64,000 nt of DNA from a virus, in the UHGV virus genome UHGV-0213393. One strand, written 5' to 3'. This document shows, one piece after another, positions 1 through 61,500 of this stretch. The position numbers and the translations under genes were made by a program. The notes under the pieces were generated by a model, which was given only the letters and a program-made list of their open reading frames with translations, ran no database searches and was not told the origin of the DNA. Within the stretch, counting starts at the first letter, position 1; each line of letters begins with the position of its first letter.

Positions 1-4
1 CGAA

Positions 5-610
5 ATGGCGCAAATGCATCTTGAGCATGAACGCCGGATCAACGCCGTTAATGCCCAGGTAGCCGAAGTATCGGCACAAGTGTCCAAAGTCGCTGAAACC
101 GTCGAGCAAATAAAGAAAGGCAATATTCCGGAAGGCTACATTAGCTACCGCCAGTTAGCGGCAAAATGCGGCCTGACTGAAGCCAAATGCCGTAACCTGG
201 TCAATGCGTATCGGATTCCCACCGATACACATGAGTTTTTAACTCCCGATGGTTTGCTCGCGAGACGCTCCATTGTGGCCCTGGCCCCCTTCCGGAAAGC
301 CTTTAAGCAGGTTATGTCGGAGGCAGAACCACGTAACAAACGCTGGTATCATCCCAGGATGGGGCTATTTCAGGCCATTCACCATCCTGTGCCTGAAAGT
401 CCAAAGGCAAACCTGTCGTTGCATACCGCCAGAGAGAAGATTAAAACAGGGTATGCAACCGTATGCCGTCGAGCATCCTGGCCTGAAAGTGTCTGGGTAT
501 GGCCCGAAAGAGGCTCACGGAAAAACTGGCGCACCATTCGCGACGGCAAAATCTGTGCGATTGATTTACAGCCAGAAGATGTAGCAGCGACCGACTGGAT
601 TGTTAGTTAA
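5..610 (+). CDS. Rha-family phage regulatory protein, C-terminal part (5' end lies outside the window), fused in frame to a small Rha-associated domain
   Basis: Translation aligns by eye to the C-terminal half of the Rha-like ORF at 53402-54109 (VAETVEQIKKGNIPEGY...RWYHPRMG) and continues in frame into a homolog of the small ORF 54094-54306 (WVWP...DWIV). Confidence 0.6.
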   Translation: MAQMHLEHERRINAVNAQVAEVSAQVSKVAETVEQIKKGNIPEGYISYRQLAAKCGLTEAKCRNLVNAYRIPTDTHEFLTPDGLLARRSIVALAPFRKAFKQVMSEAEPRNKRWYHPRMGLFQAIHHPVPESPKANLSLHTAREKIKTGYATVCRRASWPESVWVWPERGSRKNWRTIRDGKICAIDLQPEDVAATDWIVS

Positions 611-617
611 TAGATTT

Positions 618-640
618 GCCCCGGTCATGCCGGGGCTTTA
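618..640 (+). terminator. GC-rich hairpin (GCCCCGG-loop-CCGGGGC) after the Rha-like gene, weak T tract
   Basis: Inverted repeat directly after the stop codon; a near-identical hairpin follows the second Rha module at 54315-54338. Confidence 0.4.
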
Positions 641-666
641 ACTACTAAGTGACCGGACACAGCAAA

Positions 667-963
667 ATGTATGCCACGAAAAAAATTGATTTCACTTATT
701 CTTCCGCCACAATTGAGCGGCGCTTCACCCTCATTAGAGAGTTGGAACTGTCAAAAGTCTGGTATCAAATTCTACTGGATGAAGAGTTCTCACTGATGAT
801 AATGGCTGAAAAAGAAGCAATGCCGAATGACCGGCATAAAGTCATTGCCAGCCTTGACCTGGTGACAAACAGATACTGGGAGACAGAGGAACTGCGTGAA
901 GCGGGAGTAATTCGTGACCTGATGGATAATTCCGTTCCCCGTCGTTATCGAGTAATGAGCTAA
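667..963 (+). CDS. hypothetical protein
   Basis: Open frame only; no recognisable motif, weak RBS. Confidence 0.3.
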   Translation: MYATKKIDFTYSSATIERRFTLIRELELSKVWYQILLDEEFSLMIMAEKEAMPNDRHKVIASLDLVTNRYWETEELREAGVIRDLMDNSVPRRYRVMS

Positions 964-1111
964 AACTCACCTACACACCGTCAGGCCCAACGCTAATAAA
1001 TGAAACACCCCGCTCTTAGTGTTTCAGGGAGCCAGCTCATTTTTAGCTTGGAAGCAACTTGATTATGAGCTAAGCCTGACATACACTTCAGCGAGAAAAT
1101 GATCAAGTTAA

Positions 1112-1149
1112 AGACACAAAAGCTCTGTTAAAACAGAGCTTTTGTGTCT
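1112..1149. repeat. perfect 38-bp palindrome (18-bp arms, 2-nt centre) upstream of the 1290-3294 cassette; terminator or operator
   Basis: AGACACAAAAGCTCTGTT-AA-AACAGAGCTTTTGTGTCT read directly from the sequence. Confidence 0.6.
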
Positions 1150-1289
1150 TTAAAACATAGATATCATGCCATATATAGTGCCAAAGTTAGTTTTAGACAC
1201 TATATATATTACAAAAGGTAAAAACCGCTTCTACTTTTAACATACACAGAAAAAAAGAAAGCGGTTATAGATAAGGGAAAGGAGGGGTT

Positions 1290-1595
1290 ATGCTCTATGC
1301 GGTTCCTCAGCAAGCTTCTGATTCTTTGAAGTTGATCAAGACTGTACTTCAGCTTATAGCATCTCAACAAGAAGTGTCACAGCAGTTAAAGTTACGGGTT
1401 TATGAGGTGATCAGAGAAGCCTCAAACTTAAGTGTAGATAAAGGTGATCAACTACAGATTCCCTCTCACAGAGAGTCCATCTCGCTCGCGGTAGAAATAC
1501 GCCATACTAAGGCGCTAGCCAAGGTGCTAACCAAAGTAACTAGCGAAGATATGTTAGAACCCGTAATGGCCCGGAATGTATTAGAGTACATTTAA
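1290..1595 (+). CDS. small hypothetical protein, first gene of a three-gene cassette
   Basis: Strong RBS AAGGAGGGG before the ATG; stop overlaps the next start (TAATG); AT-rich. Confidence 0.6.
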   Translation: MLYAVPQQASDSLKLIKTVLQLIASQQEVSQQLKLRVYEVIREASNLSVDKGDQLQIPSHRESISLAVEIRHTKALAKVLTKVTSEDMLEPVMARNVLEYI

Positions 1596-2680
1596 TGCTT
1601 GCATTTACACAACTTACATTAGTTCGAAATAAGCTAAGGGAGATTTCAGAATCTCCCTATTTTTCTAAAGACATGCATGAATATCTCGCTGTTCTACAAG
1701 AAGCAGCAGATAAGCTATATGAAAACCATGAGAAGGTTGCCGATGAAATAATTGCTGATTGTACTTTTTTTATCACCGATGCAGTTAATTTTTTCACTGG
1801 CAGTACTACAAAGAAAATTCCCTACGAGATTGTTTATTGCTTAAATGATGCCTGTAAAAAATGGATAAGTGAAAAAACACTTATTACAACGGCTCTATCG
1901 CCAGATATGAATGGGTTTTATTTTAAGTCTGTAAGTAAGAATTTCTACACTTTACTTAATGAAATTTTACATGTTAAATGCGATATCGAATTAATTCAGA
2001 TTTCATTACCTGAAATGTACCGAAGACGACCATTGTGCTCAACACCTTTATATCACGAGTTGGGCCACTTTGTTGATATTAGCAAAGGTATTTCTGAGCT
2101 TGCCAATCTAAACTTTCGTTCTATTAATCAAGGTACGCTTCCTGTGCCACATAAAGGTATTGAGTGGTCTAAATTACCTGATGTTATTTGGCTGAATCAC
2201 TGTAGGGAGTATTTTGCAGATCTTTTCAGTGCGCAATTTGTAGGGGAAAGCGGTGTGGATTTCTTATACAAATTAGCTGGTTCTCATCCTGCAAGCGAAA
2301 CTCACCCATCAACAGAAAACAGGGTTAAAGTTGTAAGCGACTTTTTGAACAAAGTGGAAAATCCAGTTATTGGCATGTTCAATGCTGTGATATCAGCCTT
2401 ACATAAGGGTGGGCAAATTATTTCTCCTTGTTTGACATTGCCGACACCTTTGCTTGATGTGAAATCAGCTTTTGATAATGTGCGTCCTTTTGTTATTCGC
2501 GACCACAATGAAATGCATGCTTTTATTAACAGCAGCTGGCAGTACTTATGCTCTGAATGGGAAAAACCTACGGGTATATGGTCTGGGTTGTCAAAAGAAG
2601 CCATAGAAAAAACTATAAATGATTTGGTTGAAAAATCGATTCGAAACGTAATGATTCTTGAAAAATGGAATGCACAATGA
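1595..2680 (+). CDS. HExxH zinc-metallopeptidase-like protein (possibly ImmA/IrrE-like)
   Basis: Single HELGH motif (PLYHELGHFVD) about residue 155; translationally coupled to both neighbours. Confidence 0.55.
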   Translation: MLAFTQLTLVRNKLREISESPYFSKDMHEYLAVLQEAADKLYENHEKVADEIIADCTFFITDAVNFFTGSTTKKIPYEIVYCLNDACKKWISEKTLITTALSPDMNGFYFKSVSKNFYTLLNEILHVKCDIELIQISLPEMYRRRPLCSTPLYHELGHFVDISKGISELANLNFRSINQGTLPVPHKGIEWSKLPDVIWLNHCREYFADLFSAQFVGESGVDFLYKLAGSHPASETHPSTENRVKVVSDFLNKVENPVIGMFNAVISALHKGGQIISPCLTLPTPLLDVKSAFDNVRPFVIRDHNEMHAFINSSWQYLCSEWEKPTGIWSGLSKEAIEKTINDLVEKSIRNVMILEKWNAQ

Positions 2681-3294
2681 ATCTCCTAAGCAAAGCTGAA
2701 TTACTGCAATATTATGAATCAGAAGAACCTGAATCGTTGTTCATTGAACCTCTTCTAAATAAAAACCAAATTGGGAACTTCACCATAGACCTTAGACTTG
2801 GTTACGATTTTTTAGTGTCTATTATGACAAGGAAGCCGTCAATAGAGTTAATTCCCTCTAAAAACAATGATACTCATCAACCAATCAGAACATTTTTCCA
2901 GGAAACAAGGAGAGATCTTGGGGATAGATTCATTGTTTACCCGAATCAAGTGGTACTGGCAACAACATTAGAATATGTTTGTTTGCCACCAGATTGCTAC
3001 GCTGATGTATTGTCCAGAAGCAGCTATACAAGGCTTGGTCTTTCATTAAATACCATGATACAACCAGGGTACAGAGGCTGTATATCTTTAGAGTTATTTA
3101 ATCATGGGAATAGCCCTGTGGAACTTATTGTTGGATCTCGCATATGTCAAATTCGTATATTCAAGAATGAAACTGTCGGTGAATACATAAGTCATGAGTC
3201 TCACAGGAAATATTTCGGAAATGTGAGGCCAACCGTCTCAGCAGCAGAAAGTGATAATGAATTAAATATGCTGGAAAAGATCCGACAAAAATGA
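2677..3294 (+). CDS. dCTP deaminase (Dcd)-like protein
   Basis: By-eye alignment to E. coli Dcd across the catalytic core: IDLRLG, SRSSYTRLGL (Ser/Arg), GYRGCISLELFNHG (Glu), ICQIRIF; ATGA start/stop overlap with upstream gene. Confidence 0.8.
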   Translation: MNLLSKAELLQYYESEEPESLFIEPLLNKNQIGNFTIDLRLGYDFLVSIMTRKPSIELIPSKNNDTHQPIRTFFQETRRDLGDRFIVYPNQVVLATTLEYVCLPPDCYADVLSRSSYTRLGLSLNTMIQPGYRGCISLELFNHGNSPVELIVGSRICQIRIFKNETVGEYISHESHRKYFGNVRPTVSAAESDNELNMLEKIRQK

Positions 3295-3327
3295 AAACTT
3301 TAATGCTTTATATTATAAAAGCATACA

Positions 3328-3359
3328 GCGACAACGCAGCCACCAAGATGTGTTGTCGC
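3328..3359. terminator. possible bidirectional hairpin between convergent genes
   Basis: GCGACAAC...GTTGTCGC inverted repeat with a long loop. Confidence 0.3.
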
Positions 3360-3382
3360 CATGTTCAAAGTTCTAACGCAGT

Positions 3383-3775
3383 TTAAAAATCACCTGCGCG
3401 CTGTTTTTCAAGCACAGATTTAACATTTGGCGCTTTCCCTTTAAAAGAATGGAAAGTGCCACATTTTTCTGTTTTAACCTCGCGCAGAGCTTCGCCATCG
3501 GCGTTCTGCCATTGATGGGATAATGTCATATCACCGCGAGAAGGAACATCCAGCGAGTACAGCGTGTAAGTTCCCCCCATCTCCGCATACTACTGGAACA
3601 CATAGCTCATTACGTCAGATTCAGTTTTTCGGTGTGCGTTATCAACCTTATTCCCATTCAGAAATATGGCATCTGGATAGATTTTTATATCAAACCGACC
3701 GCACTTAACTTGTAAATTTCCGGCGCTCGCGATCAAAGGGAAAGACGCCAGTAAAGCAATAGCAAATCTTTTCAA
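3383..3775 (-). pseudogene. secreted small protein gene interrupted by an in-frame amber codon (about 3590-3592)
   Basis: Track ORFs 3590-3775 and 3383-3580 are in the same frame, separated by TAG plus three sense codons; N-terminal signal peptide MKRFAIALLASFPLIASA. Confidence 0.35.
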
Positions 3776-3795
3776 TTCTGCCTCCGCTGCGTAAC

Positions 3796-4419
3796 TTATT
3801 GCCCGTATTTTTTACACCATTGCTCTGCCATTTGTTTGGCTAAAGGCCCGGCTACTGCACTGTATTCTGCTGTTTTACTTTGCACACATGAAGCAGATGG
3901 TTTTTTATTTCGCTGCTCGGTTAGTTTGCGCTCATAAGCCATCATGCTATCGAACCCGGCAATATCACTTTGGCGAAGCATTCCCTTTTTAACCAAAAAT
4001 TGCTGCCCCTCTGGCACCAACGCAAGCATAAAAAGAGGTTGCAATAACTCACCTAATCCTTGCTGGCGATACACTTCGAATTGCTGCCATCCCTGACTTA
4101 ATCTGGAAAGAGTATCTTTGGTTGAATAACCTGTTTTTGTTATAGCTTTGTCCGTCAGATATGCTGTATATGCAAAAACGCAAAAGTCAGTTTTACCAAT
4201 AAACTGAGTTCCAACAGGCCGTAATAGAATGCCCTCCCTCTTGCAAAAGTCCATAATTGCCGCTTGTGAATGATCCCCACCAGCGTTATTCATAACCTGC
4301 TGTCCTGCCCTGAATTGTGCAGGTAACGCAGTTGCATTGGCAGTATTAACAGATACGCATCCCAACATAGCCGCGAGCGCGGCCCCTAAAACCCTTAACT
4401 TCACTACACCATCCTTCAT
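3796..4419 (-). CDS. hypothetical secreted protein (N-terminal signal peptide)
   Basis: Hydrophobic N-terminus LRVLGAALAAMLGCVSVNTANA; no recognised catalytic motif. Confidence 0.5.
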   Translation of the reverse strand: MKDGVVKLRVLGAALAAMLGCVSVNTANATALPAQFRAGQQVMNNAGGDHSQAAIMDFCKREGILLRPVGTQFIGKTDFCVFAYTAYLTDKAITKTGYSTKDTLSRLSQGWQQFEVYRQQGLGELLQPLFMLALVPEGQQFLVKKGMLRQSDIAGFDSMMAYERKLTEQRNKKPSASCVQSKTAEYSAVAGPLAKQMAEQWCKKYGQ

Positions 4420-4633
4420 GTAAACAAAATGAAGTTTTATGTTATAAAAACAATTAACTACATCAACATGATTTAGGCCAAATTTCGGTCAAAAAATAAA
4501 ATCCACAAAAAGTGGTTGACACTATTTTGGAAATCACAAACTACACATAATCCATCGCGCTAACGGCTCCCGTTGAAGGTTCTTTTGACGATTAACTTTC
4601 AGCCGAAGCGCGGTAGGGAGTCATAACGCCAAA

Positions 4634-4661
4634 GCAGGCCGCCATGTGCGGCCTTTTTTTG
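4634..4661 (+). terminator. rho-independent terminator-like hairpin (GGCCGC-CATGT-GCGGCC plus T7) with no upstream plus-strand CDS
   Basis: GC stem followed by seven T; the upstream neighbour is on the minus strand. Confidence 0.5.
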
Positions 4662-4687
4662 TATCCGTCATCCGTGGAGGAAGGACA

Positions 4688-5341
4688 ATGGAAAAGATCG
4701 CAATATTCAGCCTGACCACCAGCAAGCCTCAAATGCTCACTGCAATACTGAAAGACGGTGCTCTCATTATTAACGAAGTAAAACCCCTTCCCGCGTCAGC
4801 ATTGGAGCAAAAGCAAAAAATTCCTCCAGCTATAGCAGCCCTGCGGAAAAGCAAATTTAAGGTACTGGTAGACGAAATTACGCCAACGATCTCCGCTGGC
4901 ACCGGAGCAAGCCAAGTGACTCTCAAGACACGTCATGCCGATGGCAGAGCAGCAATCATCGTCGGGATGGAAAGATACAGAGAGTTAAAACTCCAGAAGC
5001 TATTATCCCTGCCGCAAAATAACAAAGGTGCTTTCGAAATCCCCGACTCTATCGTTGATACCGAATACAACGGTAACGGAGAAGAAGTCTACAGGGTGAA
5101 CTGGCAGGATATCAGGCCGGAGCATATTCTGATGATCCTGTGTTGCTACGCGACCGTATACCACAACGTTGCCAGTGCGGATTACGTAGAGCAGATGACC
5201 GGGACAGTCGAGAAAGAGCAAAAAACAGGCATACTCGCTTCGTTCCTTTCCATTATTGGGCATGAAAAAGTTAAAGCAGGCACCTCCCAGCCAAAGTCAC
5301 TGGCTGGGAAAGAAGTTGATGAAGATACCGTGATACTTTGA
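4688..5341 (+). CDS. hypothetical protein
   Basis: ORF with RBS GGAGGAAGG before ATG (MEKIAIFSL...). Confidence 0.5.
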   Translation: MEKIAIFSLTTSKPQMLTAILKDGALIINEVKPLPASALEQKQKIPPAIAALRKSKFKVLVDEITPTISAGTGASQVTLKTRHADGRAAIIVGMERYRELKLQKLLSLPQNNKGAFEIPDSIVDTEYNGNGEEVYRVNWQDIRPEHILMILCCYATVYHNVASADYVEQMTGTVEKEQKTGILASFLSIIGHEKVKAGTSQPKSLAGKEVDEDTVIL

Positions 5342-5669
5342 TCACATTAGTAGCTTTGTTAACTCCCTCAATACTAGGTAGAAGAGTAACAAAAATACTG
5401 ACGCCAGTATTTGCGTGGTCAATGAGGCGTTCATAAACAGATCAATAAGCTTTAACAATTCTAGAATAACATCCATGTCATTCACTCCGTTTAATTTTTA
5501 ATCTAATGCCAGCAAATGAAGCTGGCCCCCGCATAAAGATTAATGAAAGTCACTTGTCACCAATGAGGGGATTTATGAACCACATCCCCCTGAACTGGTG
5601 GCCTGTCTGTTTCTCGCATTTCACACCCTGTATACAGTTTCCCCCAGGTTATGACTGTGAGGAACTGTT

Positions 5670-5999
5670 ATGAGTTACAGCAGGCTCGACGATCGATGCA
5701 TTGAAGACGATGTGCTGCGCGCACTATTCCATCAGGAGATGATCAAGCGGGTATCGGAGTATCACTCCGATAATTTCCAGTACACGATAAAAATTGATGA
5801 GGTTTATCGCTCAGACCTGGCGGCCTATCGCGCCTATGGCAACGCTGATTTGCGCTGGGTATTTCGCGTGCTGGTGGGCCATGAGTCAGAAATGGAAGAA
5901 ATGCCGGTAGGGACAACGTTAACTCTTCCTGACGCAGCATGGCTAAGAAACAAGATTCGCGATTACGCTGGCTCGGCACCGGAGATAGAAAATGCCTGA
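5670..5999 (+). CDS. hypothetical protein
   Basis: ORF overlapping the start of the downstream gene by 8 nt. Confidence 0.45.
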   Translation: MSYSRLDDRCIEDDVLRALFHQEMIKRVSEYHSDNFQYTIKIDEVYRSDLAAYRAYGNADLRWVFRVLVGHESEMEEMPVGTTLTLPDAAWLRNKIRDYAGSAPEIENA

Positions 6000-7188
6000 C
6001 TTCCTGAAAAATCAGGACGGGCGATATATCACTGACGGCCTGTCCTCTAAGGATTTCACACGCGTATTTGAACTCATCAGGAAAGAGCAAAACCGCAAAC
6101 GCCGCCAGGCGCACAGGACACTCACGCCGGGCAGGCTTAGGAATAAATCAGCCGAAGACATTCTTAAGCTGGGGAAAAAGAAAGGCGGCACGTTCTTTAC
6201 GCGTGACGATCTGAAAGGCTTCGAAAAGCTGCGAAGCAAAGCACGCGAAAAATACGACAGCAAGACGGCTGGCATTACATACGCACAACTGGTAGCGTCC
6301 AGCCAGGCTATCGATATTAAGCGAGCAAATAACGCCGTAGACGACGGTTCTGGTATCAAAAGAGCTACGCCCGTATCTCTTCGTCACAATGTGATTAATA
6401 TCCGCGTGGAAGCGTCCGATATATCCGTTCACCAGCACCACATTGTCCGGGTACGTTTTGAAGAATGGGATCAGATGGTCGATGACATCGCAGAAGACGA
6501 TAAATCAGCCCTGAAAGTCACAAAATCACTGTGTGCCGGGCGAGTGTCTTTCGATTGTGACTGCGGTCGCCATCAATACTGGTATCGCTACATCGCCACT
6601 GCGGGTAACTTTGCCCTGGCCCCGCCAAAAGAATACGCCTATCCAAAAGTTCGCAACCCTAAGCTGCAAGGCGTCGCCTGTAAACATGTGATCCACTCAA
6701 TGACACGACTACAGTCTGCCAGTTGGCAGATGAGTATTGCTCGCGCCCTGCAAAAAGCTGCAACGCAAGTTGCCTTTGGTGACGATCGCCGCCGCACGAC
6801 AAAACACTTCACAAAAGAAGACGAGAAGGCGTTCAATCGAAATCGTAGCAGCAAAACGAATGTTGAGGCAGCTAAACGTGAATGGAAGCTCTATCAGAAA
6901 CGCCAGGCCGCTTTAAGCACAAAACTGGCAAAGGACAACGGCAAGATTGACAAGCTACGTGATCAGCTGACCAGGGCCAGAAAGTTGTCCGATGCACAGA
7001 AAAAACGGGCAGCAGCAAAAGAAGCAGCCTTGCAACGTGAGAAACAGAAAAACAAGGAGCTTCAGCAACGCCTTGCCGATCAATTCGCACTGAAGAAGCA
7101 AGCGTTCATTGATGCGCTGGTCATGACAGGAACGTCACCTGAGCAAGCTGAAAAAATGTTTATGGAGTATGTGAAGAAAGGTTCTTAA
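5992..7188 (+). CDS. SWIM-type zinc-finger protein with basic coiled-coil C-terminus
   Basis: CxC...CxH pattern (FDCDCGRHQYW...GVACKHVIH); K/R/Q-rich helical tail. Confidence 0.5.
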   Translation: MPDFLKNQDGRYITDGLSSKDFTRVFELIRKEQNRKRRQAHRTLTPGRLRNKSAEDILKLGKKKGGTFFTRDDLKGFEKLRSKAREKYDSKTAGITYAQLVASSQAIDIKRANNAVDDGSGIKRATPVSLRHNVINIRVEASDISVHQHHIVRVRFEEWDQMVDDIAEDDKSALKVTKSLCAGRVSFDCDCGRHQYWYRYIATAGNFALAPPKEYAYPKVRNPKLQGVACKHVIHSMTRLQSASWQMSIARALQKAATQVAFGDDRRRTTKHFTKEDEKAFNRNRSSKTNVEAAKREWKLYQKRQAALSTKLAKDNGKIDKLRDQLTRARKLSDAQKKRAAAKEAALQREKQKNKELQQRLADQFALKKQAFIDALVMTGTSPEQAEKMFMEYVKKGS

Positions 7189-7197
7189 TTTACAACA

Positions 7198-7218
7198 AAG
7201 GCGGTTATCCCGCCTTTT
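7198..7218. terminator. bidirectional hairpin AAAGGCGG-TTATC-CCGCCTTT between convergent genes
   Basis: Inverted repeat read from sequence. Confidence 0.45.
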
Positions 7219-7221
7219 ATA

Positions 7222-7971
7222 TTACTTGTCCTTTGATGTCGATTGAGACTCATATATTGTCTCTACGTCATCTATTAGTTTATTAATACCCCACAATCCA
7301 GTGTCTTTATAAAAATCGCTTTCTTCAATTGCTTTTAATAAATCGGCAAAATCTTCTTGGGTGGAAATTCTTTTCTTTTTTGCTTTATATACATCGACAA
7401 TTACTTTTATGCCGTGATACAGAGCCACTCTGGCACTCTCAGTCTCTCTCTTCTTCTCTTCAATTGCAGACAATAATTTATATTGATCTTCTGTTTGCTT
7501 TTCTAGACTTAAAAGCTTGCTCTCTTTTTGCTTCAAGTTGATCTGCAACTCTTTTATTCTTGCCCTCTCTTCTAAATCAAACTCATAGTCAATGTATCTA
7601 ATTCTTGCATAGTTCCTGCCTGTTGCTTTTGATATATACATTGTTATATAAGGCATTACCACTGACGCAGTGGTTCCATATATAAATGGCATAACAAAAT
7701 GAGCCACAAACGGAGATACAATGATGGGGCCAACATAAGGAAAGTGATATTTCTCACCAACCCATACTATAGACAATGTTGTATATATATCGTACTTTGA
7801 TTTAAATAATATAATAATATCCTGCCAGTTAACGACAAAAAAAGAAACCACAACATATGCAAACAACTTATTAAATAACTTGTCTCTTATGGCTTCTTCT
7901 ATTGTGTTCCTGACTGTGACATTTTCATCTTTATTTTCTAATGATGAATCTTTGCTCATATAAAAATTCAA
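7222..7971 (-). CDS. membrane protein with C-terminal coiled-coil domain (possible exclusion or abortive-infection factor)
   Basis: Three to four hydrophobic segments in residues about 35-115, then a charged heptad-like region; AT-rich. Confidence 0.5.
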   Translation of the reverse strand: MNFYMSKDSSLENKDENVTVRNTIEEAIRDKLFNKLFAYVVVSFFVVNWQDIIILFKSKYDIYTTLSIVWVGEKYHFPYVGPIIVSPFVAHFVMPFIYGTTASVVMPYITMYISKATGRNYARIRYIDYEFDLEERARIKELQINLKQKESKLLSLEKQTEDQYKLLSAIEEKKRETESARVALYHGIKVIVDVYKAKKKRISTQEDFADLLKAIEESDFYKDTGLWGINKLIDDVETIYESQSTSKDK

Positions 7972-52762: not shown

Positions 52763-53401
52763 TGTTGCGATTGACTGTACAATAACCGTGCGGCGGGAAT
52801 TTCATCGCTCGAAAATGTATGTTAGAAAATTAAATTGATGTTTCTAATCAAGAATGTATGATTTACATCGTCACAAAAAAACAGCATCTGATAAAAATTC
52901 TGTTGATCTTTCTAATGTTCAGGCTTATATTCATGCCGTCGTAGCAAATTCTGCGACCAGGTTTGACAGCCTGAATGTTAGTGCGGACAACCGCAGATTT
53001 CCGATATTGCGGTATTTTTGTGTCCGTAAACCGCGTTACGCCCGAATTATGGTGGGGCGTGATGGGGAGGCTTCGGCCTGCTGGTTTCACTAACGCCAGT
53101 CTGTCAACCCTGTCACGTCCTGCCACCTGTTTGACAGCGGGTAGCAGGTTGTTAAACCTGTTAGTGAGGCCGTAACTATGGTTAATGCCAATCCTTGCTC
53201 ACGTCCAGAATTCATCTGGCGTTTCCACTCCCTGCAAAAACACTGCGATCACTTCGCAATTGCCGCAACCGAAAAAGAAGCCCGTTCTCTGATCCCTGAT
53301 CAATATGGTGTTCTTACTGGTCGTTTCTCTACTTCCCCACAACCAAACACTAATCCCTGGTATCGCAATATTACCAATCCCGGCATTGCGGAGGCTCACT
53401 G

Positions 53402-55585: not shown

Positions 55586-58500
55586 TTGAGGGGGCTTCCT
55601 TTGGACAAAATAATTGATTCAATTAGCCAGGCCACCAGCATTGGGGCGCTGATTGAAATTGTTAGTCGGTTGCATAAACCGCGAGCTGTAGTGACCTTTG
55701 GCGTTAAGAAAGTCGATGGCGTCAGTATTCAGAAAACACGCCGGGCAGCAAACAACGCCGCAGTAAATCTTCTTAATTCCCTTCCGCCTGGCTTCGATGG
55801 GGCGAAATTAACTGACGAACAGCGCCAGATTCTTGCCGGGTATACCGGTGAAGGCGGCCTGACAGATGGTGAGGGCAGCCAATACGAATACTATACGCCA
55901 CAGTTTATGGCAGAAGGTATATGGGATCTCTTCGGCGACTACGGTATTGATAGCGGTCACGTACTGGAACCGTCAGCAGGCACAGGTATTTTCCAGGAGA
56001 CAAAACGGCAGGGCATGATAATGACCAGCGCCGAACTGTCTCCGATCTCCGGTCGAATAAACCAGCTTTTGCACCCGGAAGATGATGTGAATATCGGGGC
56101 GTTTGAGGCGCTGGCGGCGAAAGATGCAATGTATGACCACGCAGTTGGTAACGTACCGTTTGGCGAAGGGCGTTCCGGCGTCGCCGGGCTTGATCCGGCA
56201 TATGCAAACGAGAAGAACGTTGGCAATTATTTTGTGCTGCGCACGATCGACAAGGTTAAGCCTGGTGGACTAATTGTATTGGTGGTGCCGAATGGCATGA
56301 CCGATGGTACGAAATACAAAAAATTGCGCGATAAAGTCAGCCGTAAAGCGGAATTTTTGGGCGCGCATCGTATGCCTTCTGGTACGTTCAGCGAATCCGG
56401 TACAGATACCGTGGTGGACGTATGGGTATTGCGTAAACACCCGGAAACCTTCCTGGAGATGATCCCCGACACGGATGATGCAACGCTCAAATCGGCAAAC
56501 GTCCTTTGGGATACCTTCCTCAAAGGGAAATGGTTTACAACCGAAGGGAAGCGATTTGTTTACGGCGACATGGAACGCACCAGCTTCCGCAATACCCTGG
56601 TGGTGAAAAAGGACGGTCGTGTATCCAATGAGTCGATGAAAACCGCGTTATCACGCCGCTTTGAAAGCCGTATTAATTGGGATTTGCTCGGAGTAACTAC
56701 CCAGGCATGGCAGGGCGCAAAAGTAGGGGATAAGCGTCTTGTAGGCGGTATCTGGCATGAGTTTGATGGCCTGAAATGGGTTAAGGACACGACAACCAAA
56801 TCCTCCGCGCTTGATGTAAGTCGATATGGTGTTTCGACGTTTGGCGATCTGCAGATCGCGTTCCAGTCAACAAACGGGATTCTGGCTTTGTCATGGGACC
56901 AGATATCGGCGATCGCGTCCGACTATCCATCGGTTGTCAGTGATGAAGTGGCAGCAATGATTCGCTTTGCTGGCAAACAGCGAGAAAAAGACAGGGAGCG
57001 CGTTATGCGCGGTGCGTTGATAGGGCAGTTGATCAACAAGGCACTTGATTTGCGTAACCTGGGGGTGAACGTTGATGACAAACTGGCAGATGCATCCCGT
57101 CTGGCGGCAGCAGAAGTTGCGAAGTATGGACCACCGCACGCGATTAAGCTGAATGGGCTTGCTGAAGCTGGCGCTAAAAACTGGATGACGTTCACTGGCA
57201 ATGTGAAACAGGATGGTTCCACTTCTGACCTTCTGGCAGGGCGACTTGATGTAACGGATGGTGCTGCCGGTATTGACTTTACACGTCCGGAACAAGTGAT
57301 AGCACATCTTTTCAGTGATGTAGCCCTTAATCCTATAACGCTGGGCGACTTTCGTGAGGCGTTTGCTGGTGAACTGCCAGAGGACGACGACGCGGCCCTT
57401 GAATACCTGGCGAAATTTGATGATATCGCTATTGATGGGTATGGCTGCCTGCTGCCGATGGACCGCGCCACCAGCGGCGATATTGTAACCAAAACAGCAT
57501 TGCTGGTGGGCTGGCGTGATGCATCAACAGGTGAGCAGAAAGCGAACTTTGAGCGTCAGTTGGCGAAAATCGAAGAGAAACGCATTTTCACGCCACTAAA
57601 TAAAGTCACCGTTAATCTGAACGCCCGCTGGCTGGATCGCCGCTTGATAAAAGAGTTCCTGGCAGAGCAGGGCTATGACGAGTTTAAGTACACTGAACCT
57701 GATCTGAAGGTCGTCGATGGCATTCTGGTATCTCCGGACGATTACGAAGGTAAGGACGGGGTATTTACCGGCTATCAGCTACGAACCGTAAACGGCAAAA
57801 ACGGGAATGAGTTCAAGAAGGCCAACAATAAAGACGGCTTCCTGAACCAGTTAGAAAACTACCTGAACGGTGTTAAACCGCGTGGGCAGAACGCTAACGA
57901 GTACCTGGATAAAATTGCTCAACTGGAAGTTAGCTTTAACGACTGGTTACGCACCCACCCGCAGGCGGATCAGATAGCCCGTGACTATAACGACGCATTC
58001 AATGGCTTCATTCCGTTCACGCACTCTAACGCACCGCTTGGCCTGGAAGGGATTAGTGGAAAGCGCATTCCTCTGACTTATCAGAATGAAGAAGTTCGTC
58101 GCTTGTCAGAAGATGGGCGCGGCATCATGGGATTTGGTACCGGGCTGGGTAAAACCACGACCGCGCTTGCGCTTGAGGCGTATAACTTCGAAACAGGTCG
58201 TACTAAACGCACGTGTATTGTTGTTCCGAAGGCGGTTTATCAGAACTGGTATCACGAGGCACAGAGCTTCTACAGTGCTGATGCCTTCGCCAATATGATG
58301 TTTATCGGTCTGGATGAAGTTCGTGATGACAGCGGAAATATTCTGACCGCTCCGGTGCTTGATGAAAATGGCGAACCCCGCCTCGACAGTAACGGGCAGC
58401 CTCTTACCAGAAATGTTGTGAAAGAGTCCGCCAGCGCCGTTATCGTTCAGCGCATGAACATGATCCCGTCGTCAAATTGGCGAACGGTCATCATGACAAA

Positions 58501-61500
58501 AGAACAATTCGCGTCTATCCCGCTACGAGAAAAAACCATCGAGGAGAACTCACAGCAAGCTGTCTTTAATGCTGTGGAAATGGGGCGTCTTGACCTGGCG
58601 TCTGGTAAACACCGTGATGCGCAGAAGAAGAACAAGATTAAGGATCAGGCCGCGAATACCGGTACAACGAAGAAGCAGAATATCCCGTACTTTGAGGATA
58701 TGAACTTCGATAGCGTGATAGCCGACGAGGGGCATAACTACCGCAACTCCTTTAATGCCGGGCGTGAAGCGGGACAACTGGCATATTTGCCTAACCCGGC
58801 AGTATCCAAGATGGCCCGCGACATGGCTGTAAAAGCTGCGTACATGATGAAACGCAACAACGGGCGTGGTGTAGTCATGCTGACGGCAACACCGCTGGTG
58901 AACAGTCCGATTGATGCCTTCAACATGCTGTCTACTGTCATTCCGCAGGAAGAGTGGATGCGCATGGGCATCATTACGCCTGATGATTTCGTTCGTGTGT
59001 TTGGTAAAACAGCCACAGTTCAGGTCCAGAAAATTTCCGGGGAAGTGGAAGAGAAGCAGGGGCTGGTTGGCTTCCAGAACCTTGATGGCCTGCGTGGTAT
59101 TTTCCATCGCTGGACTACTCTGAAGACTGCTGCGGACGTCGGGGCGACGGTTAAAATCCCTGATATTGTCGAGAATACCTTGCAGATCCCGATGACAGGG
59201 GAGCAGGAGGCTGCTTATGAAGAGCTTCGTAAGCGTGCACAGGAGTTAAGTAGTAAAGATGCGCTGACGGTTGATGAAAACGGGCATATCACAAACGAAA
59301 AACCGGATGATTTCATCTTCTCCATCATCCGCGACATGGATAAGGTTGCTATAGATCCGGATCTGTATGCCAGTGCGATTACATTCCAGTTCCCCGTTGA
59401 GCTTGCAGACAAGGTAAAAGCTATTGCTGATGCCCTGCCAAAAGTAGCTGGCGGTAAAGTGGCAGATGATGCAGACGAGGCCGAAGAAGACGGCGCTGGT
59501 GGGCTGGTTAGTACGCGCACCAGTAAGGTAGTGAAGACCACCTTTAGTGAACATCCGGCGCATGTTGAAATACGTGCCAGCATTGAACTGGAAGCTGAAA
59601 TACTGAAGGCCATTGCTGCCGCCGGGATTGATATGCAGCAGGTATCACACCCAATCCCGCCGAAGTATGCCGCGCTGATCGAAAACCTTCGTGAAGGTCT
59701 GAAGAACGGTAAACAAATTGTCTTCATTGATGAAAAAGCCCAGCACCAGAAGCTGCGCCGTATTATCGCCAGTGCACTGCAAATGCCGGAGCAGGAGATA
59801 GGCATTATCAATGCGACGACCGTTAGCCAGGCTGGCGGCATCAAGCTGAAGAAGGTGAATAAGCCGACTGAACCTACTCCGAATAAAAATGGTGAATACA
59901 AAGAAGGGGCATGGGAAACCTACTACAGCAAACTTGCCCAATATGAGGATTATCTCTCAGCTAAAAATGATGCTGGCCTTGAGGGTATGGAAGGCATTGC
60001 CGCCGACTATAACGAAGGGCGCACGCGCATAATTATCTGTAACAAGAAGGCTGAAGTAGGTATTAACCTGCATATCGGGACAACCGATATCCACCACCTG
60101 ACACTACCCTGGACACCAGCCAGTATCGACCAACGAAATGGGCGCGGTGCGCGCGTAGGTTCACCGCAAGAGAAGGTCAATGTTCACTACTATTGTGGCA
60201 AAGGCACATTCGACGACTTCCGTCTGGATACGCTGAAACGTAAGAAAGACTGGATCAAGATGGTGATGACCTCCGACATGTCAGAGATCGCCAATGGTGA
60301 TGCGGATGATGCTGATGAACGCGCCATTATGCTGGCGGCAAACCCGGAAGAACGCCGCGCAATCATGGCTCGCCAGACGCAAGAGCGTGAAGAACGTCTG
60401 AAACTGAAAGCACAGCGCGAGGCCAACAATGCTCTCGATATCTACCTGAAAGCGGCAAACGCCGCTGGAAAAGATATCGGCATGATGGAGACAGAACTGA
60501 AAAGCGCGATGGAACAGATAGAGTATTACCAGCGAAATCTTGACGACCTGATAAAAGCGGGTACGAACAGGAATGGGCAAAAATTCGCGCTTGAGCAGTT
60601 GAGTAGCTACAGAAAACGTGCGCGGGTGCTGCGGTTTGCGATCACCAGGGCAAAAGACGCGGATACCATAATGAAACGCTCTCGTGGTGATGTGGAGCGC
60701 GCTATTAAGTCTGGTGTGCTGGATATCAGTATCGATGTTATTCAGAACCCACAGGAATATATGCGCACTGACAAGAATATCCTGTTGCATAAAGGTAGTT
60801 ATTACCGTGCAGTCATTGATGATCGCGAAACAACAGCGATTGTCCGGGTGGAAAAAATTGACGGTGAAAAAGCACAATACCTCTGCCGTATCGCCTGGCT
60901 GGATAGAGCAAGTCGTTACGCTCGAGCACCGGGGTCAATCGTTACATTGCCGTTTGACTCTGTGATTGAAGCGGTAACTTTTGAAGAGGGGGTAGCTGAA
61001 TCGCGCGCAACGGCTGCGCGTGGTGTTCAGTGCCACCAGCTATCAACAATACTTACTCGCGATCAGTTCTATGATGCTATTCGCAATGGGGTAATGAATG
61101 TTATTGCTGGTAAACCTGGTAATGCATGGGGCGGTGGGTCAGCTATTAAATACTGGGCATATCGCACAGATGATGGTCAGATCGCGCTGTCATCGGCCTA
61201 TGATGGCGTGATAGGCCAAAAAATCGGGCGAGCATCGGATATAGCACCTGAACGATGGATATATCCAGATGGCAACGATGAGGCGCTGAAGCGTGAAGTG
61301 GCAAAAATACAAGCCAGTGATAACCCGCTGAATATCGTGGACGGCGAGGGATTCCTCCAGGCATTGTATGGGTATGATTACATCCAGGGAATGCAGGCAT
61401 GGGGCGCACAGGCAACGATGGATGATGTTGTCCAGGAGTTCGAAAACTGGATGGCTGGGCGTGGTCTGTCAGGTCGTTCGCTTAATAAAGTCACTTCTGA

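What the first reader, a model, noticed from the sequence alone, without database searches (positions are those of the whole stretch)
1290..3294. Candidate undescribed three-gene module: small protein + HExxH metallopeptidase-like + dCTP-deaminase-like
Three plus-strand ORFs are translationally coupled (TAATG and ATGA overlaps), preceded by a strong RBS, and sit in an AT-rich islet between a Rha module and minus-strand cargo, which is the typical look of an acquired accessory operon. ORF3 aligns by eye to E. coli Dcd through the catalytic core with the Ser/Arg/Glu positions conserved, so it is probably an active dCTP deaminase-type enzyme. ORF2 has one HELGH zincin motif. Dcd-type enzymes are known anti-phage nucleotide-depletion effectors (established knowledge), but I do not know of a described system pairing a Dcd-like enzyme with an HExxH peptidase and a small partner. 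An alternative reading is a phage nucleotide-metabolism or counter-defence module.
Basis: partly seen in the sequence, partly recalled or inferred. Interest (0 to 1): 0.8.

Follow-up and report, generated by a model that had tools for sequence, protein, structure and literature searches.

The report
Conserved protease–dCTP-deaminase three-gene module
Three tightly linked genes on an E. coli phage-plasmid (a small protein, a soluble zinc protease and a dCTP-deaminase-type enzyme) are a conserved, apparently undescribed module that sits among anti-phage genes in many bacteria, so it is a strong candidate for a new immune system that starves viruses of a DNA building block.

Summary
Three translationally coupled + strand genes (1290-1595, 1595-2680, 2677-3294) lie in a 2.4-kb AT-rich cargo segment (951-3380) of a D6-like phage-plasmid.

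- **ORF3** is a Dcd/dUTPase-fold dCTP deaminase above NCBI's curated cut-off, with catalytic Ser/Arg/Glu intact. An invariant Gln replaces the canonical motif-III Asp.
- **ORF2** has invariant HExxH, ExxAD and HPxxxxR motifs. Its modelled core matches zincin peptidases best, with Ste24/M48 on top.
- **ORF1** is a fast-evolving ~100-aa protein with no known domain.

The triad is strictly syntenic in about 50 loci from alpha-, beta- and gamma-proteobacteria, Desulfobulbaceae, Geobacter and Bacteroidota. The three proteins co-evolve, and one lineage encodes ORF1 plus an ORF2::ORF3 fusion. It is nearly absent from phages.

Neighbours include BREX, R-M, RosmerTA, MADS and CapH/CapP regulators. Bub ubiquitination-like operons are adjacent in 18 of 48 species-level loci. 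A distant ORF1-ORF2 subfamily carries a STAND NTPase or nuclease-like genes instead of Dcd.

PADLOC and the searched literature hold no such system. The known defensive dCTP deaminase is a zinc CDA-fold enzyme fused to a kinase, a different fold.

Best reading: a new protease-gated dCTP-depletion defence module. Function is inferred, not shown.

The parts
951..3380 (.). Cargo segment: present in this phage-plasmid, replaced by 31 bp in an empty-site relative
   Evidence: blastn of window 1-7200 against plasmid AR_0119 unitig_3 (L056): homology stops at 950 and resumes at 3381. Only 12 of 132 related PLSDB plasmids carry it. GC is 32-40% against 45-52% in the flanks.
1108..1153 (.). 46-bp perfect palindrome (22-nt arms, 2 nt apart) at the upstream end of the cargo; possible bidirectional terminator or protein-binding site
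   Evidence: the repeat finder I1, 100% complementary
1150..1207 (+). Candidate promoter (TTAAAA-18-TATAGT, 1150-1179) overlapped by an imperfect inverted repeat (1171-1185 / 1193-1207) that could be an operator
   Evidence: Consensus scan; the number of sites in the region is not above chance, so this is weak. IR I2 has 87% complementarity.
1281..1286 (+). Shine-Dalgarno AGGAGG for ORF1
   Evidence: Read directly from the sequence
1290..1595 (+). ORF1: 101-aa small partner protein with no known domain, the fastest-evolving component
   Evidence: No Pfam, NCBIfam or PADLOC family. It matches phrog_27938, unknown function. A homologue lies directly upstream of ORF2 in all loci with enough sequence, across Proteobacteria and Bacteroidota. 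Mean pairwise identity is 21%.
1595..2680 (+). ORF2: 361-aa soluble M48-like zinc metallopeptidase with N- and C-terminal helical domains
2677..3294 (+). ORF3: 205-aa Dcd/dUTPase-fold dCTP deaminase-type enzyme, the predicted effector
   Evidence: TIGR02274 113.3 bits against a cut-off of 92.8, and PF22769 1.3e-30. It aligns to E. coli Dcd 1xs1 and to 4xjc with S/R/E conserved. S119/S120, R123 and E143 are invariant, and Q133 replaces the canonical Asp in 117 of 118 members.

Best explanation
The segment 951-3380 is an autonomous, horizontally mobile three-gene anti-phage module, carried here as lysogenic-conversion cargo of a D6-like phage-plasmid next to the immI/sim (immunity and superinfection-exclusion) region.

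Proposed working:
- ORF3, a trimeric-type Dcd-fold enzyme, is the effector. It deaminates dCTP to dUTP, depleting dCTP and possibly loading uracil, so phage DNA replication stalls.
- Its activity is held in check until infection by the ORF1-ORF2 pair. ORF2, a soluble M48-like zinc protease flanked by helical domains, acts as the switch.
- The fast-evolving small protein ORF1 is its substrate, inhibitor or adaptor. Cleavage or release of ORF1, or of a Dcd tail, on a phage cue would unleash the deaminase.

Shown here: the genes, their conserved linkage, co-evolution and fusion, intact catalytic motifs in both enzymes, the peptidase fold, the mobile and defence-island context, and absence from known-system libraries.

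Inferred: the defence function, dCTP as substrate, Dcd as effector, and proteolytic gating with ORF1 as the target.
For: - **Strict synteny.** In 53 loci the Dcd gene overlaps or abuts the end of the peptidase gene in 51. An ORF1 homologue lies directly upstream. Starting from ORF3 homologues, 4 of 4 have both partners.
- **Co-evolution.** Pairwise-identity matrices correlate at r about 0.85, Mantel p = 0.001. Conservation runs ORF3 48% > ORF2 32% > ORF1 21%, as expected for an enzyme effector with a diversifying sensor or regulator.
- **Rosetta-stone fusion.** ORF2::ORF3 is a single 631-aa protein, preceded by an ORF1 homologue with a TAATG junction, on two contigs.
- **Catalytic competence.** ORF3 exceeds the curated dCTP_deam cut-off with Ser/Arg/Glu invariant. 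ORF2 has invariant HExxH, ExxAD and HPxxxxR motifs and a zincin fold.
- **Mobility.** The module is present in 12 of 132 related phage-plasmids and 8 of 5,426 complete E. coli genomes, as a clean 2.4-kb AT-rich indel. Elsewhere it sits next to integrases, Tn7-like genes and transposases.
- **Defence-island context.** Neighbours include RosmerTA RmrA at 4.6e-105, BREX PglZ/BrxL, a type II R-M plus Mrr, MADS mad2/mad8, PD-Lambda-2_B, and capP in 11 and capH in 10 of 266 neighbour ORFs. Bub operons are adjacent in 18 of 48 loci.
- **Swappable third gene.** In a distant ORF1-ORF2 subfamily the third gene is a NACHT/STAND NTPase, a NERD-like protein, or a pP_pnuc nuclease neighbour.
- **Rare in viruses.** ORF2 has no match in 50,697 phage records, and 3 loci were found in 2.9 million IMG/VR contigs.
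- **Precedent.** dCTP depletion is an established defence strategy.
Against: - No phenotype, enzyme assay or nucleotide-pool measurement exists.
- PADLOC 2.0 has no model for any of the three proteins, so nothing ties it to a validated system.
- The invariant Asp-to-Gln change in ORF3 could mean a different substrate or a non-catalytic role.
- Nothing shows that ORF2 cleaves ORF1. ORF1's fold was not modelled.
- In two Hymenobacteraceae the triad lies right after nrdA, a metabolic context.
- Several Bub-linked loci may descend from one spreading island, so the counts are not all independent events.
- The swapped-partner evidence rests on a few short contigs and weak Pfam hits.
Confidence: 0.55

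Rival explanations
1. The triad is a functional partner module of Bub (bacterial ubiquitination-like, 6E/DUF6527) pathways. It would be an effector or a regulated target that Bub conjugation or BubE proteolysis controls. The stand-alone enterobacterial copies would be a reduced form. This overlaps with, rather than excludes, a defence role.
For: Bub genes lie next to the triad in 18 of 48 species-level loci, and in 2 of 4 further loci, in at least five different arrangements and three phyla. In alpha-proteobacteria the order BubAB-BubCD-BubE-ORF1-ORF2-Dcd runs on one strand with gaps of -55 to +55 nt, with a divergent CapH/CapP pair. Bub operons are rare (544 catalogued) and their biological role and targets are unknown.
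Against: The window and the Dickeya, Aeromonas, Dechloromonas, Methylophaga and Methylotuvimicrobium loci have the triad without any Bub gene, so the triad can stand alone. The Bub papers do not report such neighbours. Defence systems often co-localise without interacting.
Confidence: 0.2
2. Roles are reversed: the ORF2 protease is the toxic effector, in the manner of the Lit protease, and the Dcd-fold protein is a nucleotide-binding sensor or signal generator. For example, it could recognise phage-modified dCTP or pool shifts. ORF1 would be the protease inhibitor.
For: ORF1-ORF2 is the constant pair, while the third gene can be a STAND NTPase, typically a sensor. The invariant Asp-to-Gln change in ORF3 suggests altered nucleotide handling. 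An ORF2::ORF3 fusion exists.
Against: ORF3 keeps all three deamination residues invariant, and it is the most conserved component. Other swapped partners look like nucleases, that is, effectors. The STAND case is one distant lineage.
Confidence: 0.1
3. The triad is a toxin-antitoxin-type addiction module that stabilises mobile elements: Dcd as toxin, ORF1 as labile antitoxin degraded by ORF2. It would have no dedicated anti-phage role.
For: Small labile-looking first gene, translational coupling, location on plasmids and islands, and a neighbouring HigBA/RelE module on the same plasmid family.
Against: Many copies are chromosomal and embedded among defence systems and CapH/CapP regulators. A system encoding its own antitoxin-degrading protease is unusual. 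TA and abortive-infection roles are not mutually exclusive.
Confidence: 0.08
4. The triad is a phage-plasmid nucleotide-metabolism or counter-defence module that serves the element's own replication, for example by supplying dUMP for dTTP or by countering host nucleotide-based immunity.
For: It lies on a phage-plasmid. Phages do encode Dcd enzymes (239 phage records). PHROG families exist for all three proteins.
Against: The best phage Dcd matches are at most 35-40% identical and are mostly from archaeal viruses. ORF2 has no tblastn match in 50,697 phage records, including phage D6 itself. Only 3 IMG/VR loci were found. Most occurrences are in bacterial chromosomes. Only 12 of 132 related phage-plasmids carry it.
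Confidence: 0.04
5. The triad is a regulated housekeeping pyrimidine-metabolism operon: a Dcd isozyme with a dedicated maturation protease.
For: nrdB-nrdA lie directly upstream on the same strand in Adhaeribacter and Hymenobacter. ORF3 passes the equivalog cut-off for dCTP deaminase.
Against: The distribution is very patchy (8 of 5,426 E. coli genomes, all on plasmids; 527 clusters at 50% identity among 1.84 billion). It is associated with mobile elements and has an AT-rich foreign composition. Its neighbours are defence genes.
Confidence: 0.03

Closest known systems
Defensive dCTP deaminase (Tal et al.) / AvcD of AvcID
   Same: The predicted chemistry and strategy match: deaminate dCTP so the phage lacks a DNA precursor. 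Both are found in defence islands and on mobile elements.
   Different: The known enzyme is a single 576-aa protein with an N-terminal kinase and a zinc-dependent CDA-fold deaminase. ORF3 is a 205-aa metal-independent Dcd/dUTPase-fold enzyme with two obligate partners. No PADLOC hit at E <= 1. If the function is confirmed, this would be convergence, not homology.
Housekeeping dCTP deaminase Dcd (E. coli 1xs1; TIGR02274)
   Same: Same fold and family. The score is above the curated cut-off. Catalytic Ser111/Arg115/Glu138 equivalents and the C-terminal KY..G...S arm are conserved.
   Different: PDB E-values are only about 1e-15 to 1e-16. An invariant Gln sits at the Asp128 position. There are family-specific invariant motifs (TRKP, FQETRR, C-terminal D-x-E-L extension). 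It is always linked to ORF1/ORF2, and it is mobile and rare.
Protease switches of mobile elements and immunity: CapH/CapP, ImmR/ImmA, BlaR1/BlaI
   Different: ORF2 is not an M78 or M56 member by sequence. ORF1 has no HTH, so any control is post-translational rather than transcriptional. Cleavage has not been demonstrated.
M48 peptidases (Ste24/ZMPSTE24, HtpX, BepA)
   Different: ORF2 is below Pfam's gathering score. It is soluble, with a 3-helix N-domain and a long helical C-domain carrying an invariant NDLxEKSIRN motif. No whole-protein structural match was found in the PDB.
Bub (bacterial ubiquitination-like, 6E/DUF6527) operons
   Same: They are frequent immediate neighbours and sometimes apparently co-operonic. 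Both share CapH/CapP-type regulators and a mobile-element context.
   Different: No Bub gene lies near the triad in this window or in other gamma-proteobacterial loci. The triad has no Ubl, E1, E2 or DUF6527 domain.
Lit protease of prophage e14 (from my own knowledge, not tested here)
   Same: A prophage-encoded HExxH zinc metalloprotease that acts in abortive infection.
   Different: Lit is a single gene that cleaves EF-Tu. No similarity to ORF2 was detected in Pfam or PADLOC scans, and there is no nucleotide enzyme partner.

Membership tests
dCTP deaminase Dcd (TIGR02274 / PF22769, dUTPase superfamily) | Profile score above the curated family cut-off | tested here: met
   TIGR02274 113.3 bits against 92.8; PF22769 107 bits against 27
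dCTP deaminase Dcd (TIGR02274 / PF22769, dUTPase superfamily) | Catalytic Ser111, Arg115 and Glu138 (E. coli numbering) | tested here: met
   Aligned to 1xs1 and 4xjc. S119/S120, R123 and E143 are invariant in 118 relatives.
dCTP deaminase Dcd (TIGR02274 / PF22769, dUTPase superfamily) | Motif-III Asp (E. coli D128, 'IDPGW') | tested here: not met
   Gln in 117 of 118 family members and in the fusion protein
dCTP deaminase Dcd (TIGR02274 / PF22769, dUTPase superfamily) | dCTP to dUTP deamination activity | not testable with these tools
   Needs an enzyme assay
Known defensive dCTP deaminase (Tal et al.; PADLOC dCTPdeaminase / AvcD) | Zinc-dependent cytidine-deaminase-fold domain | tested here: not met
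   ORF3 is Dcd/dUTPase fold. No PADLOC hit at E <= 1. The published enzyme relies on zinc-binding Cys370/Cys401.
Known defensive dCTP deaminase (Tal et al.; PADLOC dCTPdeaminase / AvcD) | N-terminal kinase / P-loop domain on the same protein; single-gene system | tested here: not met
   ORF3 is a 205-aa single-domain protein. The system has three obligate genes.
Known defensive dCTP deaminase (Tal et al.; PADLOC dCTPdeaminase / AvcD) | dCTP depletion on phage infection and protection | not testable with these tools
   Needs phage challenge and LC-MS
Peptidase family M48 | HExxH plus a downstream Glu zinc ligand (gluzincin) and a C-terminal HPxxxxR motif | tested here: met
   H154, E155, H158, E205, D209, H237, P238 and R243 are invariant in 48 sequences
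Peptidase family M48 | Pfam PF01435 gathering score | tested here: not met
   17.4 bits against 20.3. 23 of 48 members hit at E < 0.1, best 7e-4.
Peptidase family M48 | Zincin catalytic-domain fold | tested here: met
Peptidase family M48 | Proteolytic activity and zinc binding | not testable with these tools
   Needs biochemistry
CapH/CapP or ImmR/ImmA regulator pair | M78 (IrrE/ImmA) peptidase domain paired with an HTH repressor | tested here: not met
   ORF2 has no PF06114 hit and ORF1 has no HTH. True capH/capP pairs are separate neighbouring genes.
Bub operon | Ubl, E2, E1 and DUF6527 (BubE) genes | tested here: not met
   None within the window segment or in the RefSeq annotation of the twin plasmid. 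They are present as neighbours in 18 of 48 other loci.
Anti-phage defence system (generic) | Enrichment next to known defence genes and on mobile elements | tested here: met
   Neighbours are capP, capH, RmrA, MADS, PD-Lambda-2, BREX, R-M/Mrr and Bub. No formal background rate was computed.
Anti-phage defence system (generic) | Protection against phage when expressed | not testable with these tools
   Needs experiment

The most novel reading that the evidence does not exclude
The triad is a new class of protease-gated nucleotide-depletion immunity built on the Dcd/dUTPase fold, convergent with the CDA-fold dCTP deaminases. It is also the long-missing functional partner (effector or regulated target) of many Bub ubiquitination-like operons, so Bub conjugation or BubE cleavage would control a dCTP deaminase through ORF1/ORF2.
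Probability: 0.15. Interest if true: 0.85.

Novelty: new variant of a known kind. Interest (0 to 1): 0.68.

Why it matters
If the triad is confirmed, it adds a second, structurally unrelated enzyme family to nucleotide-depletion immunity. It also provides a compact three-gene example of how a soluble zinc protease and a small partner could gate a metabolic effector.

The module is small (2.4 kb), comes from E. coli and has its own promoter region, so it can be cloned and challenged directly.

Its recurrent physical linkage to Bub operons, whose biological role and targets are still unknown, gives a concrete and testable handle on that question.

It also shows that D6/P1-like phage-plasmids carry exchangeable cargo at the immI-sim region. 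That cargo may shape which phages can infect clinical and livestock E. coli and Salmonella.

Tried and rejected
- **ORF1 as a paralogue of part of ORF2 or ORF3.** hhalign probabilities were about 1%. Rejected.
- **ORF1 as an HTH, Csx1 or Crn1 relative.** Only sub-threshold hits with E of 0.008-0.09. Treated as noise.
- **Megablast of the module against phages.** No match.
- **Literature.** Ten full-text searches covered Dcd with peptidase, metalloprotease, defence or ubiquitin-like terms, the RefSeq accessions and the PHROG ids. None found a description. The Bub papers and their supplement list no such neighbours. The library lacks many subscription papers, so absence is not proof.
- **Locating M78 neighbours by jackhmmer from one seed.** This was too insensitive. 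It was replaced by several seeds and the PADLOC/Pfam census.
- **'Two places per record' in the BLAST hits.** This is just the 46-bp palindrome matching both strands, not a second copy.
Full report
**1. The observation**

The three + strand ORFs exist as described: 1290-1595 (101 aa), 1595-2680 (361 aa) and 2665/2677-3294 (209/205 aa).
- The sequence shows AGGAGG at 1281-1286 just upstream of the first ATG, a TAATG junction between ORF1 and ORF2, and an ATGA junction between ORF2 and ORF3.
- The family alignment puts the true ORF3 start at the ATG at 2677. RefSeq annotates the twin plasmid the same way.
- GC is 32-40% over the module against 45-52% on both sides.

**2. Where the window comes from**

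The segment is 99% identical to E. coli plasmid pEC213_2 (92.7 kb).
- It occurs in 8 of 5,426 complete E. coli genomes, always on non-mobilizable plasmids of about 90-95 kb, and in 12 PLSDB plasmids of E. coli and Salmonella.
- The flanks match phage D6, a P1-like phage-plasmid, and 132 related plasmids.
- The local gene order is Ref, ash, Icd-like, Rha/Ant, a pmgF-like gene, the triad, two minus-strand signal-peptide genes where D6 has a simB-like gene, and then mat.
- Compared with an empty-site relative, homology stops at 950 and resumes at 3381, where the relative has 31 bp.
- The triad is therefore a discrete 2.4-kb cargo insert in the immunity/superinfection-exclusion region. It brings its own upstream region: a 46-bp perfect palindrome at 1108-1153, a weak promoter-like site at 1150-1179, and an inverted repeat over its -10.

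**3. The proteins**

*ORF3*
- It scores 113.3 bits on NCBIfam TIGR02274 (dCTP deaminase; cut-off 92.8) and 1.3e-30 on Pfam DCD.
- It aligns to solved Dcd structures (4xjc 1.9e-16; E. coli 1xs1 8e-15) with the catalytic Ser, Arg and Glu in register.
- In 118 relatives these residues are invariant.
- The motif-III Asp of canonical Dcd (IDPGW) is Gln in 117 of 118. This is unexplained.

*ORF2*
- It has no family above threshold.
- Across 48 diverse homologues, H154-E155-x-x-H158, E205-x-x-A-D209 and H237-P238...R243 are invariant. This is the M48-type gluzincin signature. A C-terminal NDLxEKSIRN motif is also invariant.
- The full AF2 model is confident (pLDDT 92). Whole-model searches were dominated by its helical N-domain or found nothing.
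- So ORF2 folds as a zincin peptidase, closest to M48, but it is soluble and highly derived.

*ORF1*
- It has no detectable domain and is unrelated to ORF2 or ORF3.
- It keeps only an N-terminal M-L-x-A and a few hydrophobic positions.

**4. Is the triad a unit?**

Yes.
- ORF2 has 372 indexed homologues and 527 clusters at 50% identity among 1.84 billion representatives. It is a small, rare family.
- Look-ups in Dickeya, Aeromonas and Dechloromonas all show small gene, peptidase, then DCD.
- A scan of one genome per species returned 48 loci from gamma-, beta- and alpha-proteobacteria and Bacteroidota.
- In 51 of 53 loci a Dcd-clade ORF overlaps or abuts the peptidase gene's end. The exceptions are a contig end and one distant variant.
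- An ORF1 homologue sits directly upstream throughout. A jackhmmer search seeded from a Bacteroidota copy retrieves the window's ORF1 at 7e-22.
- Starting from four ORF3 homologues in other taxa, all four have both partners.
- The three proteins' pairwise-identity matrices correlate (r about 0.85; Mantel p = 0.001). Mean identities are 21%, 32% and 48% for ORF1, ORF2 and ORF3.
- One lineage encodes ORF1 followed by a single 631-aa ORF2::ORF3 fusion, seen on two contigs.

**5. Context**

The loci lie in islands with integrases, Tn7-like genes or transposases.

I took a census of the three nearest ORFs on each side of 48 loci, 266 ORFs in all.
- Pfam found Peptidase_M78 in 11, HTH_3 in 12, ThiF in 9, Multi_ubiq in 9 and Prok-JAB in 7.
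- PADLOC found capP in 11, capH in 10, RmrA, E1-E2, MADS mad2/mad8, PD-Lambda-2_B and PDC-M69B.

Individual loci show specific neighbours.
- RosmerTA lies next to the triad in Dickeya.
- A type II R-M plus Mrr lies next to it in Methylophaga.
- In a Desulfobulbaceae contig the triad sits between BREX (PglZ, BrxL) and a Bub operon with CapH/CapP.

The most striking neighbour is the Bub operon (Ubl-E2, JAB-E1, DUF6527).
- It is adjacent in 18 of 48 loci, in several arrangements.
- In alpha-proteobacteria the triad follows bubE on the same strand within -55 to +55 nt.
- The Bub papers report neither this neighbour nor a biological role for Bub.

**6. Variants**

A distant Bacteroidales subfamily keeps ORF1 and ORF2 but lacks Dcd.
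- In one case the third gene is a 1,271-aa NACHT/STAND NTPase.
- In another it is a NERD-like 617-aa protein plus a 1,150-aa protein.
- In another a pP_pnuc nuclease lies directly upstream.

This modularity suggests that ORF1-ORF2 is a constant control module with exchangeable partners. The evidence is thin: short contigs and weak domain calls.

**7. Rivals**

*Phage nucleotide metabolism is unlikely.*
- ORF2 has no tblastn match in 50,697 phage records, including D6.
- Phage Dcd enzymes are at most 35-40% identical to ORF3.
- Only 3 of 2.9 million IMG/VR contigs carry an ORF2 relative.

*A housekeeping role is unlikely.* The distribution is too patchy, although two Hymenobacteraceae have the triad right after nrdA.

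*Still open:* an addiction-module reading, a reversed-roles reading (protease as effector, Dcd as sensor), and functional integration with Bub.

**8. Comparison with the known**

- The published defensive dCTP deaminase is a 576-aa kinase plus zinc-dependent cytosine deaminase.
- ORF3 shares neither that fold nor that architecture, and PADLOC has no hit for any of the three proteins.
- The triad is therefore not a member of that system, though it may work like it.
- It resembles protease-partner switches (CapH/CapP, ImmR/ImmA, BlaR1/BlaI) in logic only.
- No description was found in ten full-text searches, with the caveat that the library is incomplete.

**9. Verdict**

- The module is real, conserved, mobile, embedded in defence islands, and apparently undescribed.
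- The most likely function is anti-phage dCTP depletion gated by a zinc protease and a small partner (confidence about 0.55 for defence, lower for the exact gating).
- It is a new variant of nucleotide-depletion immunity.
- The unexpected link to Bub operons raises its interest.

Noticed in passing
L028:2884-7574; also L008, L013, L023-L025, L027, L029, L030, L032, L034, L035, L038, L045, L046, L048, L051, L053, L057, L060: Bub (bacterial ubiquitination-like, 6E/DUF6527) operons, usually with a CapH/CapP-like HTH plus M78 pair, lie directly next to the triad in 18 of 48 species-level loci. In alpha-proteobacteria they appear co-operonic (BubAB-BubCD-BubE-ORF1-ORF2-Dcd). The Bub literature held here does not mention this.
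   Followed up: partly
L054:5417-10804; L063:192-6909; L061:1071-3336: A distant Bacteroidales subfamily of the ORF1-ORF2 pair lacks Dcd. It is joined instead to a 1,271-aa NACHT/STAND NTPase, to a NERD-like protein plus a 1,150-aa protein, or to a pP_pnuc-type nuclease.
   Followed up: partly
L068:1745-3945: A natural fusion of the peptidase and Dcd-like proteins (631 aa) is preceded by an ORF1 homologue with a TAATG junction. It was seen on two metagenomic contigs.
   Followed up: yes
window 2677-3294 (residue Q133 of the 209-aa ORF, codon at 3061-3063): An invariant Gln replaces the motif-III Asp that canonical Dcd and dUTPases use. It is conserved in 117 of 118 relatives and its functional meaning is unknown.
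   Followed up: partly
window 52925-53130: Rfam finds a C4 antisense RNA (53045-53130) and its a1/b1 target element (52925-52977). This is a P1-type immI control region about 50 kb from the triad. The twin plasmid also has an ash/Icd-like/Rha set just upstream of the window start, so the element seems to carry two immI-like regions.
   Followed up: no
window 7222-7971 (- strand): A second AT-rich islet (GC 32-36%) encodes a 249-aa protein with hydrophobic segments and a coiled-coil-like C-terminal half, of unknown function. On the twin plasmid it lies next to a HigB/HigA-type toxin-antitoxin pair. It may be another cargo gene.
   Followed up: no
window 3590-4419 (- strand): Two backbone ORFs with signal-peptide-like N-termini (61 aa and 207 aa) occupy the place where phage D6 has a simB-like superimmunity gene. 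They have no Pfam hit.
   Followed up: partly
L001:25765-26300 (NZ_CP061103.1 65061-66722): The twin phage-plasmid is annotated as carrying a full-length glutamine--tRNA ligase (glnS) gene, unusual cargo for a P1/D6-like element.
   Followed up: no
L047:2950-5343 and L052:3108-5489: In Adhaeribacter and Hymenobacter the triad lies immediately downstream of the class I ribonucleotide reductase large subunit (ATP-cone NrdA) on the same strand. This is the only metabolic context seen.
   Followed up: partly
window 55586-62437: A 2,283-aa ORF of the size of P1 DarB (antirestriction protein) is present. It was not analysed.
   Followed up: no
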